The notes under the pieces are model-generated. The model saw only the letters and a program-made list of their open reading frames with translations, searched no databases and had not been told where the DNA came from. Made by a program: the position numbers and the translations under genes. Below, piece by piece: positions 3,001 through 6,000 of a stretch of 8,207 bases of DNA. Source of the DNA: Giardia intestinalis (lineage: Eukaryota); the NCBI GenBank assembly GCA_000002435.2, contig AACB03000019.1; one strand, given 5' to 3'. The number at the start of each line of letters is the position of its first letter. Positions within the stretch are counted from its first letter, which is position 1.

Positions 3001-6000
3001 TGGCGGAAAGAAATGCGGAGTCGGCTGCCCGGCGAACTCCACCCCTAAGGAGAGCGTGTGCGAGTGCAACGGAGGATACAGGCCGAACGCCCAGGGCCAG
3101 TGCGAGCAAGACCCCGCCGCGGTGTGTGCGCCCCGCGCTGATCGGCGCCGGGTGTGCGACATGCACAGGAGAGAACGACGGACAGACGTGCCTTACGTGT
3201 AATCCCCAAGAGAACAAGGTGCAGCCTGGCGGAAAGAAATGCGGAGTCGGCTGCCCGGCGAACTCCACCCCTAAGGAGAGCGTGTGCGAGTGCAACGGAG
3301 GATACAGGCCGAACGCCCAGGGCCAGTGCGAGCAAGACCCCGCCGCGGTGTGTGCGCCCGCGCTGATCGGCGCCGGGTGTGCGACATGCACAGGAGAGAA
3401 CGACGGACAGACGTGCCTTACGTGTAATCCCCAAGAGAACAAGGTGCAGCCTGGCGGAAAGAAATGCGGAGTCGGCTGCCCGGCGAACTCCACCCCTAAG
3501 GAGAGCGTGTGCGAGTGCAACGGAGGATACAGGCCGAACGCCCAGGGCCAGTGCGAGCAAGACCCCGCCGCGGTGTGTGCGCCCGCGCTGATCGGCGCCG
3601 GGTGTGCGACATGCACAGGAGAGAACGACGGACAGACGTGCCTTACGTGTAATCCCCAAGAGAACAAGGTGCAGCCTGGCGGAAAGAAATGCGGAGTCGG
3701 CTGCCCGGCGAACTCCACCCCTAAGGAGAGCGTGTGCGAGTGCAACGGAGGATACAGGCCGAACGCCCAGGGCCAGTGCGAGCAAGACCCCGCCGCGGTG
3801 TGTGCGCCCGCGCTGATCGGCGCCGGGTGTGCGACATGCACAGGAGAGAACGACGGACAGACGTGCCTTACGTGTAATCCCCAAGAGAACAAGGTGCAGC
3901 CTGGCGGAAAGAAATGCGGAGTCGGCTGCCCGGCGAACTCCACCCCTAAGGAGAGCGTGTGCGAGTGCAACGGAGGATACAGGCCGAACGCCCAGGGCCA
4001 GTGCGAGCAAGACCCCGCCGCGGTGTGTGCGCCCGCGCTGATCGGCGCCGGGTGTGCGACATGCACAGGAGAGAACGACGGACAGACGTGCCTTACGTGT
4101 AATCCCCAAGAGAACAAGGTGCAGCCTGGCGGAAAGAAATGCGGAGTCGGCTGCCCGGCGAACTCCACCCCTAAGGAGAGCGTGTGCGAGTGCAACGGAG
4201 GATACAGGCCGAACGCCCAGGGCCAGTGCGAGCAAGACCCCGCCGCGGTGTGTGCGCCCGCGCTGATCGGCGCCGGGTGTGCGACATGCACAGGAGAGAA
4301 CGACGGACAGACGTGCCTTACGTGTAATCCCCAAGAGAACAAGGTGCAGCCTGGCGGAAAGAAATGCGGAGTCGGCTGCCCGGCGAACTCCACCCCTAAG
4401 GAGAGCGTGTGCGAGTGCAACGGAGGATACAGGCCGAACGCCCAGGGCCAGTGCGAGCAAGACCCCGCCGCGGTGTGTGCGCCCGCGCTGATCGGCGCCG
4501 GGTGTGCGACATGCACAGGAGAGAACGACGGACAGACGTGCCTTACGTGTAATCCCCAAGAGAACAAGGTGCAGCCTGGCGGAAAGAAATGCGGAGTCGG
4601 CTGCCCGGCGAACTCCACCCCTAAGGAGAGCGTGTGCGAGTGCAACGGAGGATACAGGCCGAACGCCCAGGGCCAGTGCGAGCAAGACCCCGCCGCGGTG
4701 TGTGCGCCCGCGCTGATCGGCGCCGGGTGTGCGACATGCACAGGAGAGAACGACGGACAGACGTGCCTTACGTGTAATCCCCAAGAGAACAAGGTGCAGC
4801 CTGGCGGAAAGAAATGCGGAGTCGGCTGCCCGGCGAACTCACCCCTAAGGAGAGCGTGTGCGAGTGCAACGGAGGATACAGGCCGAACGCCCAGGGCCAG
4901 TGCGAGCAAGACCCCGCCGCGGTGTGTGCGCCCGCGCTGATCGGCGCCGGGTGTGCGACATGCACAGGAGAGAACGACGGACAGACGTGCCTTACGTGTA
5001 ATCCCAAGAGAACAAGGTGCAGCCTGGCGGAAAGAAATGCGGAGTCGGCTGCCCGGCGAACTCCACCCCTAAGGAGAGCGTGTGCGAGTGCAACGGAGGA
5101 TACAGGCCGAACGCCCAGGGCCAGTGCGAGCAAGACCCCGCGCGGTGTGTGCGCCCGCGCTGATCGGCGCCGGGTGTGCGACATGCACAGGAGAGAACGA
5201 CGGACAGACGTGCCTTACGTGTAATCCCCAAGAGAACAGGTGCAGCCTGGCGGAAAGAAATGCGGAGTCGGCTGCCCGGCGAACTCCACCCTAAGGAGAG
5301 CGTGTGCGAGTGCAACGGAGGATACAGGCCGAACGCCCAGGGCCAGTGCGAGCAAGACCCCGCCGCGGTGTGTGCGCCCGCGCTGATCGGCGCCGGGTGT
5401 GCGACATGCACAGGAGAGAACGACGGACAGACGTGCCTTACGTGTAATCCCCAAGAGAACAAGGTGCAGCCTGGCGGAAAGAAATGCGGAGTCGGCTGCC
5501 GGCGAACTCCACCCTAAGGAGAGCGTGTGCGAGTGCAACGGAGGATACAGGCCGAACGCCCAGGGCCAGTGCGAGCAAGACCCCGCCGCGGGTGTGTGCG
5601 CCCGCGCTGATCGGCGCCGGGTGTGCGACATGCACAGGAGAGAACGACGGACAGACGTGCCTTACGTGTAATCCCAAGAGAACAAGGTGCAGCCTGGCGG
5701 AAAGAAATGCGGAGTCGGCTGCCCGGCGAACTCCACCCTAAGGAGAGCGTGTGCGAGTGCAACGGAGGATACAGGCCGAACGCCCAGGGCCAGTGCGAGC
5801 AAGACCCCGCCGCGGTGTGTGCGCCCGCGCTGATCGGCGCCGGGTGTGCGACATGCACAGGAGAGAACGACGGACAGACGTGCCTTACGTGTAATCCCCA
5901 AGAGAACAAGGTGCAGCCTGGCGGAAAGAAATGCGGAGTCGGCTGCCCGGCGAACTCCACCCCTAAGGAGAGCGTGTGCGAGTGCAACGGAGGATACAGG

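What the first reader, a model, noticed from the sequence alone, without database searches (positions are those of the whole stretch)
3137..3361. Repeat unit encodes a 75-aa, 10-cysteine module with an EGF signature and two CXXC motifs
In one + frame the unit reads CAPALIGAGCATCTGENDGQTCLTCNPQENKVQPGGKKCGVGCPANSTPKESVCECNGGYRPNAQGQCEQDPAAV. The first half has the spacing C-x8-C-x2-C-x8-C-x2-C, a CXXC pair pattern. The second half is C-x3-C-x11-C-x-C-x11-C and contains the EGF-like consensus C-x-C-x2-G-Y-x6-C. The module is hydrophilic and rich in Gly, Asn, Gln and Pro. It carries an N-x-S/T sequon (NST), and its GC3 (about 77%) exceeds overall GC. That is the expected signature of a real extracellular disulfide-rich repeat domain rather than a non-coding satellite. 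A protein built from at least 36 identical copies of such a module would be very large, more than 2,700 aa from this window alone.
Basis: partly seen in the sequence, partly recalled or inferred. Interest (0 to 1): 0.65.

Follow-up and report, generated by a model that had tools for sequence, protein, structure and literature searches.

The report
Giardia surface-antigen (VSP) repeat array

Summary
The whole 8,207-bp window is 36.5 tandem copies of a 225-bp unit.

The window is the complete unplaced scaffold NW_024037090.1 of the Giardia intestinalis WB C6 reference assembly. A 2022 preprint lists it as "intergenic5089".

The consensus unit is identical to the repeat in the annotated chromosome-3 gene GL50803_0050290. 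That gene encodes a 2,153-aa VSP: signal peptide, 28 identical modules, a transmembrane helix and CRGKA. A one-module paralogue of 128 aa (GL50803_00102178) also exists, with syntenic one-module orthologues in isolates DH and P15.

As deposited, the window is not an intact ORF. It differs from a perfect array by 76 indels, 65 of them homopolymer length changes, and only 4 substitutions. This is the signature of unpolished PacBio consensus, not decay.

A family profile and an AlphaFold model (pLDDT 85) place the module nearest R-spondin/EGFR-type furin-like repeats with a cEGF-like tail. The matches are weak, and the unit alone hits no Pfam family.

The only open point is whether 36.5 versus 28 copies reflects an under-assembled locus, a longer allele or an assembly artefact.

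Verdict: already known, low interest.

The parts
1..8207 (+). Tandem array of 36.5 copies of a 225-bp unit. It is the complete unplaced scaffold NW_024037090.1 of Giardia intestinalis WB C6, and it is an internal fragment of a VSP coding repeat with no 5' (signal peptide) or 3' (TM/CRGKA) sequence.
   Evidence: TRF. A global alignment to a perfect array spans 36.55 units. The first 399 nt are identical to the sequence printed for NW_024037090.1, 0-8207, in Table S7 of bioRxiv 10.1101/2022.03.07.483299. No signal-peptide or TM-encoding sequence of the annotated gene is present.
3351..3575 (+). One clean repeat unit, in register from the first Cys to the final Val: CAPALIGAGCATCTGENDGQTCLTCNPQENKVQPGGKKCGVGCPANSTPKESVCECNGGYRPNAQGQCEQDPAAV.
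   Evidence: Translation. The 225-nt consensus unit occurs exactly in the printed CDS of GL50803_0050290.
3135..4839 (+). Longest stretch with no difference from the perfect array (about 7.6 units).
   Evidence: there are no events between window positions 3131 and 4840.
2916..4937 (+). Longest stop-free stretch on the + strand (674 codons). It holds 6 perfect 75-aa modules and is bounded by frameshifts.
3131..3134 (+). A CCCC run where the consensus has CCC.
   Evidence: unit u14: 13->C.
1..2000 (.). Error-dense left end, with 39 of the 80 differences from the perfect array. Nearly all differences in the window are 1-nt indels.
   Evidence: events per kb are 21, 18, 8, 1, 1, 9, 2, 18, 2.
7001..8000 (.). 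Error-dense bin near the right end, with 18 differences.

Best explanation
The window is a leftover long-read contig of the Giardia intestinalis WB C6 reference assembly. [quoted passage not shown]

Each unit encodes one 75-aa, 10-Cys ectodomain module. The module has a furin-like CXXC beta-hairpin half followed by a cEGF-like half. In the intact gene a signal peptide precedes the array, and a transmembrane helix plus the CRGKA tail follow it. The protein is therefore a long beaded rod of identical disulfide-knotted modules on the trophozoite surface.

Inferred from established VSP biology, it acts as one member of the mutually exclusive VSP repertoire. It would form a protease-resistant coat whose repeated epitope is immunodominant, and the parasite would escape it by switching to another VSP.

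The frameshifts in the window are uncorrected PacBio homopolymer errors, not biology. The contig stayed unplaced because a perfect repeat longer than the reads can be anchored nowhere. Its 36.5 units against 28 in the placed gene mean one of three things: the chromosomal copy is under-assembled, one allele of this tetraploid organism is longer, or the assembler chained reads out of register.
For: Shown here:
- The first 399 nt and the length of 8,207 match NW_024037090.1 as printed in Table S7 of bioRxiv 10.1101/2022.03.07.483299.
- The consensus unit is 225/225 identical to the repeat in the printed CDS of GL50803_0050290.
- The protein database holds XP_037901808.1/KAE8302825.1, a 2,153-aa 'VSP [Giardia intestinalis]' with a signal peptide, 28 identical modules, a TM helix and CRGKA.
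- It also holds the one-module 128-aa VSP XP_001704930.1, which passes the Pfam VSP model PF03302 (E 1.2e-18, above the curated cut-off).
- The window differs from a perfect array by 76 indels and only 4 substitutions. Of the indels, 65 are homopolymer length changes, and they are concentrated towards the contig ends.
- One-module orthologues lie in conserved synteny in isolates DH and P15. All Cys are conserved and dN/dS is 0.16-0.35.
- Of 154 sequences on file (150 relatives from 1.84 billion representatives plus the four found earlier), 100 end in CRGKA. Several are built from tandem homologous modules of about 70-75 aa.
- The family profile hits R-spondin-2 Fu1-Fu2 (E 5.7e-5) and the factor X/IX EGF2 domain (E about 1e-3).

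From the literature:
- Xu et al. 2020 (PMC7000408) report PacBio homopolymer frameshifts and 33 small unplaced contigs 'enriched with repeats'.
- Adam et al. 2010 (PMC2996952) report 30 WB vsp genes with 105-516 bp tandem repeats, copy numbers that are approximate or condensed by assembly, and allelic copy-number variation for vspA6 and vspC5.
- The 2022 preprint reports that VSPs resist proteolysis and bind metals, and that SMART finds furin-like and EGF domains in them.
Against: - The window has no flanking unique sequence, so it cannot be tied physically to chromosome 3 rather than to a second locus.
- It carries more units (36.5) than the placed gene (28).
- As deposited it has stops in every frame.
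- The unit alone hits no Pfam family, and Foldseek finds nothing significant (best E 0.4).
- I found no direct transcript or peptide evidence for the multi-unit gene. Only the 128-aa paralogue is listed with a 'Unique' peptide in Table S13 and with low RNA-seq values.
- Surface expression, switching and immunodominance are inferred from other VSPs, not shown for this one.
Confidence: 0.9

Rival explanations
1. The contig represents a genuinely longer allele, or a second unplaced paralogous locus, of the same VSP. It would carry at least 37 repeat units, which would make it the largest VSP of the WB isolate at 2,800 aa or more.
For: - The window holds 36.5 units with no flanks, against 28 units in the chromosome-3 gene.
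- Allelic differences in repeat number are documented for vspA6 and vspC5, and copy numbers in assemblies are called approximate (PMC2996952).
Against: - A perfect repeat lets an assembler chain reads out of register, so contig length is not a reliable measure of array length.
- The error-dense ends suggest very low read support.
- No read-level data are available here.
Confidence: 0.4
2. It is a decayed VSP pseudogene fragment, a dead repeat array whose frameshifts are real.
For: - No frame is open over more than 674 aa on the + strand.
- WB has 208 annotated pseudo-VSPs (PMC7000408).
- The 2022 preprint lists this contig among intergenic regions similar to Cys-rich genes that 'could be more pseudogenes'.
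Against: - The ratio of 76 indels to 4 substitutions, with 65 of 76 indels in homopolymers and a 1.7-kb error-free core, is the opposite of neutral decay and typical of PacBio consensus error.
- The consensus unit is identical to that of the intact gene.
Confidence: 0.05
3. It is a non-coding satellite whose open frame is a by-product of high GC content.
For: - Two antisense frames of the consensus unit are also stop-free.
- The - strand has an 897-aa open stretch.
- There are no Pfam hits for the unit.
Against: - It is identical to an annotated CDS that has a signal peptide and a TM anchor.
- The orthologues are under purifying selection with conserved Cys.
- There are 157 homologues, and 100 of the 154 sequences on file end in the VSP tail CRGKA.
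- The family alignment gives a confident fold prediction.
- The antisense peptides have no family support.
Confidence: 0.01

Closest known systems
Giardia intestinalis WB VSP GL50803_0050290 (XP_037901808.1 / KAE8302825.1), chromosome 3
   Same: The 225-nt repeat unit and the 75-aa module are identical. The organism and the assembly are the same.
   Different: The placed gene has 28 units, a signal peptide and a TM/CRGKA end. The window has 36.5 units, no ends, and 80 differences from a perfect array that are mostly homopolymer indels.
Giardia mini-VSP GL50803_00102178 (XP_001704930.1, 128 aa) and its orthologues in DH (ESU36043.1) and P15 (EFO60887.1)
   Same: The signal peptide, module and tail are the same in the WB copy. 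The orthologous modules are 77-82% identical in protein and 85-89% in DNA.
   Different: Each carries a single module and no tandem array. The relationship mirrors vspA6-S1 (about 1 repeat) versus vspA6 (about 23 repeats) described in PMC2996952.
Classical repeat-containing VSPs: vspA6/CRP170 (195-bp x ~23), vspC5 (105-bp x ~25), CRP136 (120-bp x 22), and the related modules of GL50803_00112207 (216 bp) and GL50803_0050066 (222 bp)
   Same: The architecture is the same: a short 5' leader, near-perfect tandem coding repeats, then the conserved 3' end. The modules of GL50803_00112207 and GL50803_0050066 share the same 10-Cys spacing and 32-33 of 75 identical residues with the window's module.
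   Different: The unit sequence and length differ. Adam et al. found the repeat of each TR-containing vsp to be unique.
Furin-like cysteine-rich repeats (R-spondin Fu1-Fu2, EGFR/HER and insulin-receptor CR domains) and cEGF / factor X EGF2
   Same: - The CXXC-containing beta-hairpin modules are stabilised by disulfides.
- The family profile hits RSPO2 at E 5.7e-5 and factor X EGF2 at about 1e-3.
- 26 of 49 family modules weakly hit Pfam cEGF.
- The module carries the EGF_2-type pattern C-x-C-x2-G-Y-x7-C.
   Different: - The similarity is weak and below family thresholds.
- The window's own module hits no Pfam model, and Foldseek finds nothing significant.
- There is no evidence of homology beyond the general class of small disulfide-rich extracellular repeats.
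- The disulfide map could not be checked.

Membership tests
Giardia variant-specific surface protein (VSP) | Cys-rich ectodomain with multiple CXXC motifs | tested here: met
   The module has 10 Cys in 75 aa (13%) and two CXXC motifs per unit. Both CXXC motifs fall in invariant columns of the family alignment.
Giardia variant-specific surface protein (VSP) | N-terminal signal peptide | tested here: not met
   The window itself contains no sequence encoding MLLVLLASCIAVQA. The signal peptide is present in the annotated proteins that carry the identical module (P0004 and P0001). Table S1 of the preprint records it as a signal peptide. The window is therefore an internal fragment of a member, not a complete member.
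Giardia variant-specific surface protein (VSP) | Conserved C-terminal transmembrane domain followed by CRGKA | tested here: not met
   It is absent from the window. It is present in P0004 and P0001, which end ...GGLVGFLCWWFICRGKA. Of the 154 sequences on file, 100 end in CRGKA.
Giardia variant-specific surface protein (VSP) | Match to Pfam PF03302 (VSP) above the gathering score | tested here: inconclusive
   A 3-unit concatenate gives no hit at E<=10. The one-module protein P0001 scores 67.6 bits against a cut-off of 31.4, with the match covering residues 15-128 including the module. The preprint notes that only 19 of 136 VSPs match this model.
Giardia variant-specific surface protein (VSP) | Identity or homology to annotated Giardia VSP genes | tested here: met
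   The unit is 225/225 nt identical to the repeat of GL50803_0050290. The sources name the protein hits VSP.
Giardia variant-specific surface protein (VSP) | Initiator element at the start codon and extended polyadenylation signal after the stop | not testable with these tools
   The gene ends are not in the window. The preprint's tables list the Inr 'caatgtt' and a PAS motif hit for GL50803_0050290.
Giardia variant-specific surface protein (VSP) | Mutually exclusive surface expression and switching | not testable with these tools
   This needs clone-level RNA-seq, antibodies or proteomics. The only data found are low RNA-seq values and a 'Unique' peptide flag for the 128-aa paralogue.
EGF-like domain (EGF / cEGF) | Match to an EGF-family profile at a significant score | tested here: not met
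   The window module has no Pfam hit at E<=0.1. Of 49 homologous modules, 26 give weak cEGF hits (best E 1.6e-5). The family profile hits the factor X EGF2 domain at E about 1e-3. This is suggestive of the fold class only.
EGF-like domain (EGF / cEGF) | Six Cys with 1-3, 2-4, 5-6 disulfide connectivity | not testable with these tools
   Model coordinates are not exposed, so the disulfide pairing could not be read. The pattern C-x-C-x2-G-Y-x7-C is present.
Furin-like cysteine-rich repeat (R-spondin / EGFR CR type) | Sequence-profile and fold similarity to solved furin-like repeats | tested here: inconclusive

The most novel reading that the evidence does not exclude
The contig may faithfully report an array of at least 37 units. 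In that case the real GL50803_0050290 locus, or one of its alleles in the tetraploid WB trophozoite, encodes a VSP of 2,800 aa or more. That would be longer than any VSP placed in the reference, with the chromosome-3 copy under-assembled and repeat number varying between alleles as in vspA6 and vspC5.
Probability: 0.4. Interest if true: 0.2.

Novelty: already known. Interest (0 to 1): 0.08.

Why it matters
It matters little beyond housekeeping.

For genome curation, the result shows that an unplaced 'intergenic' scaffold of the Giardia reference is in fact an unpolished VSP coding repeat. It also shows that the repeat number of GL50803_0050290 (28) may be an underestimate or may vary between alleles.

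For the scan, it is a useful calibration case. A tool-less reader correctly recognised a coding, extracellular, disulfide-rich module from raw sequence and even listed Giardia VSP as a candidate.

Tandem-repeat VSPs, their furin/EGF-like character and their copy-number instability have been described since the 1990s.

Tried and rejected
- Pfam on a 3-unit concatenate and on the two stop-free antisense peptides gave only sub-threshold noise.
- A PDB sequence search with two units found nothing.
- AlphaFold on three units without an alignment gave pLDDT 57.8 and was not used.
- Foldseek against the PDB found nothing significant.
- An exact look-up of the WB proteins P0001 and P0004 in the gene-position index found them not on record, so the chromosome-3 locus DNA could not be fetched.
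- A search for the unit-to-unit junction in JGI metagenome contigs gave 0 hits.
- An Rfam scan gave 0 hits.
- A literature search for the gene IDs and for '225 bp' VSP repeats found no papers.
- I considered vsp12 (GL50803_13520, 128 aa) from Adam et al. Table S1 as the one-module gene and rejected it. Its 15 Cys and 4 CXXC do not match P0001, which has 13 Cys and 2 CXXC.
- The two 'TR225' genes in that table (vsp21/AS7 with 3 copies, vsp95 with 2 copies) are different genes of 646 and 716 aa. I did not examine their repeat sequences.
- I first considered trypanosomatid or green-algal origins because of the 65% GC. The protein hits ruled these out.
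Full report
**1. What is in the sequence**

Tandem Repeats Finder reports a single array covering 1..8207. Its period is 225 and it has 36.5 copies at 98% matches and 1% indels. Base composition is flat at about 65% GC with a constant positive GC skew, as expected for one unit repeated.

Splitting the window into units gives lengths of 218-229 nt. 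Only 9 of 35 full units are identical.

No frame is open across the window as deposited. The longest + strand open stretch is 674 codons at 2916-4937. Only 10 perfect 75-aa units can be read over the three + frames.

**2. Nature of the differences between copies**

I aligned the window globally to a perfect array. This gives 45 deletions, 31 insertions and only 4 substitutions. Of the 76 indels, 65 lengthen or shorten a homopolymer. Events per kb are 21, 18, 8, 1, 1, 9, 2, 18, 2, so they cluster near the contig ends. Positions 3131-4840 are error-free. The recurrent sites are the CCCC and AAA runs of the unit.

This is the signature of an unpolished long-read consensus with thin coverage at the ends. 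It is not what divergence or pseudogene decay looks like.

**3.

The peptide is correct as the consensus unit. However, the literal interval 3137-3361 in frame 1 contains two stops. The frame begins at 3138, and an extra C at 3131-3134 breaks the frame just upstream. A clean unit from C to V lies at 3351-3575.

The actual Cys spacing is C-x8-C-x2-C-x8-C-x2-C-x13-C-x3-C-x10-C-x-C-x11-C. The EGF-type motif is C-x-C-x2-G-Y-x7-C. That still fits the PROSITE EGF_2-type pattern, which I quote from memory. It occurs in 0.19% of shuffles of the unit and in 36 of 49 homologous modules.

**4. Identity**

Pfam on a 3-unit concatenate gives no EGF, VSP or furin hit, and a PDB sequence search finds nothing.

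The large protein database returns three hits, all Giardia VSPs of 127-128 aa: WB XP_001704930.1, P15 EFO60887.1 and DH ESU36043.1. Each consists of a signal peptide, one module, a TM helix and CRGKA. All three pass Pfam PF03302.

The 90% cluster of the WB protein also contains XP_037901808.1/KAE8302825.1. This is a 2,153-aa WB VSP with a signal peptide, 28 identical copies of exactly this module, a TM helix and CRGKA.

The supplementary tables of Rodriguez-Walker et al. (bioRxiv 10.1101/2022.03.07.483299) list these two WB genes, both on chromosome 3 (NC_051858.1):
- GL50803_0050290: 6,462 nt, Inr caatgtt, 283 Cys, 56 CXXC.
- GL50803_00102178: 387 nt.

Table S7 of the same preprint lists 'GL50803_intergenic5089, NW_024037090.1, 0-8207'. 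The first 399 nt printed there equal window 1-399 exactly, and the consensus unit occurs exactly in the printed CDS of GL50803_0050290. The window is therefore the complete unplaced scaffold NW_024037090.1 of the WB C6 reference.

Three published statements fit this:
- Xu et al. 2020 (PMC7000408) describe 33 small leftover contigs 'enriched with repeats'.
- The same paper reports frameshifts from PacBio homopolymer errors.
- The preprint states that no complete VSP is found on the unplaced scaffolds, and that intergenic regions similar to Cys-rich genes exist.

**5. Evidence that the frame is a real coding frame**

The one-module orthologues in DH (assemblage A2) and P15 (assemblage E) lie in the same gene neighbourhood: aminotransferase, a 347-aa ORF, a protein kinase, then the mini-VSP. 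Each locus holds one unit only, at 88.7% and 84.7% nucleotide identity to the window unit.

All ten module Cys are conserved. Whole-gene dN/dS is 0.16-0.35. For the module alone it is 0.19-0.29 against P15 but 0.89 between WB and DH, on few changes.

A full HMMER scan of 1.84 billion representatives with the 128-aa protein finds 157 relatives. Of the 154 sequences on file, 100 end in CRGKA. Several are themselves tandem arrays of homologous modules of about 70-75 aa. Modules from GL50803_00112207 and GL50803_0050066 share the 10-Cys spacing and 32-33 of 75 residues with the window's module.

**6. Fold of the module**

An alignment of 49 module instances (A1) has eight invariant Cys, plus a ninth Cys and a Gly that are nearly invariant. 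The first Cys is variable.

The profile hits R-spondin-2 Fu1-Fu2 at E 5.7e-5, factor X/IX EGF2 at E about 1e-3, and the EphA2 Cys-rich region. Of 49 members, 26 weakly hit Pfam cEGF and 3 hit Furin-like_2. The window's own module hits nothing.

I conclude that the module belongs to the general class of furin-like/EGF-like disulfide-rich extracellular repeats. It has a CXXC hairpin half and a cEGF-like half. This resemblance is weak and is already noted for VSPs in the literature through SMART furin-like and EGF hits and a Phyre2 match to the EGF receptor. I could not read the disulfide pairing because model coordinates are not exposed.

**7. How it works**

Shown:
- The unit is the coding repeat of a type I membrane protein whose ectodomain is nothing but identical modules.

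Inferred from established VSP biology:
- One VSP at a time coats the trophozoite.
- The CXXC-rich ectodomain resists intestinal proteases and binds Zn/Fe.
- Tandem repeats are immunodominant, as shown for vspA6.
- Switching to another VSP evades the antibody response.
- Perfect repeats expand and contract by unequal recombination or replication slippage, which explains one-module and many-module relatives and allelic size variation.

**8. The one open point**

The window holds 36.5 units without flanks, whereas the placed gene has 28. There are three possible explanations:
- The chromosomal copy is under-assembled.
- A longer allele exists. Giardia has two diploid nuclei, and allelic copy-number variation is documented for vspA6 and vspC5.
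- The assembler chained reads out of register.

Read-level data would settle this, and none are available here.

**9. Rivals**

- A decayed pseudogene is contradicted by the 76:4 ratio of indels to substitutions and by the homopolymer bias.
- A non-coding satellite is contradicted by identity to an annotated CDS, by conserved orthologues under constraint and by a confident family-based fold.
- The antisense open frames are a GC-content by-product and have no family support.
- No Rfam family matches.

**10. Verdict**

Its interpretation as a coding extracellular Cys-rich repeat is right. The object is an already annotated and published kind of thing: the repeat array of a Giardia VSP, seen here through an unpolished leftover contig. 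It is already known and of low interest.

Noticed in passing
L001 6001-6384 (DH, AHGT01000059.1) and L003 6001-6387 (P15, ACVC01000563.1): One-module orthologues of the repeat unit sit in conserved synteny (aminotransferase, 347-aa ORF, protein kinase, mini-VSP) in two other Giardia assemblages. This suggests that the one-module gene is the ancestral state and the long array is a WB-lineage (or assembly-visible) expansion. These are short-read assemblies, so a collapsed array cannot be fully excluded.
   Followed up: partly
L001 8570-10456: A reverse-transcriptase (RVT_1) ORF lies about 2.2 kb downstream of the DH mini-VSP. This fits the reported association of VSP genes with retrotransposon remnants.
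   Followed up: no
L002 (ENA ERZ27317378, contig k141_112188, 2196-2579): A metagenome assembly carries a gene identical to the DH (assemblage A2) mini-VSP. That sample therefore contains Giardia DNA similar to assemblage A2.
   Followed up: no
window, - strand (whole window): Two antisense frames of the consensus unit are stop-free, and the - strand has an open stretch of 897 codons, longer than any on the + strand. The peptides have no Pfam support, so this looks like a by-product of 65% GC and of where the indel errors fall.
   Followed up: yes
alignment A1, column of the first Cys (residue 4 of window:3342-3578): The first of the ten Cys is not conserved in the wider module family, whereas nine others are invariant or nearly so. 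Its disulfide partner is therefore unclear, and it could pair across modules. I could not check this because model coordinates are not exposed.
   Followed up: no
module region of GL50803_00102178 vs the DH orthologue (L001 6001-6384): Within the module, dN/dS between WB (A1) and DH (A2) is 0.89, against 0.19-0.29 for comparisons with P15. This could hint at diversifying pressure on the exposed module between close assemblages, but the counts are small (6 synonymous and 19 non-synonymous differences).
   Followed up: partly
P0006 (451 aa) and P0010 (183 aa), hits: Some database VSP relatives carry long non-VSP N-terminal extensions before the MLVGFLL/MLLGL signal peptide. These probably come from mis-called start codons in automated annotation.
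   Followed up: no
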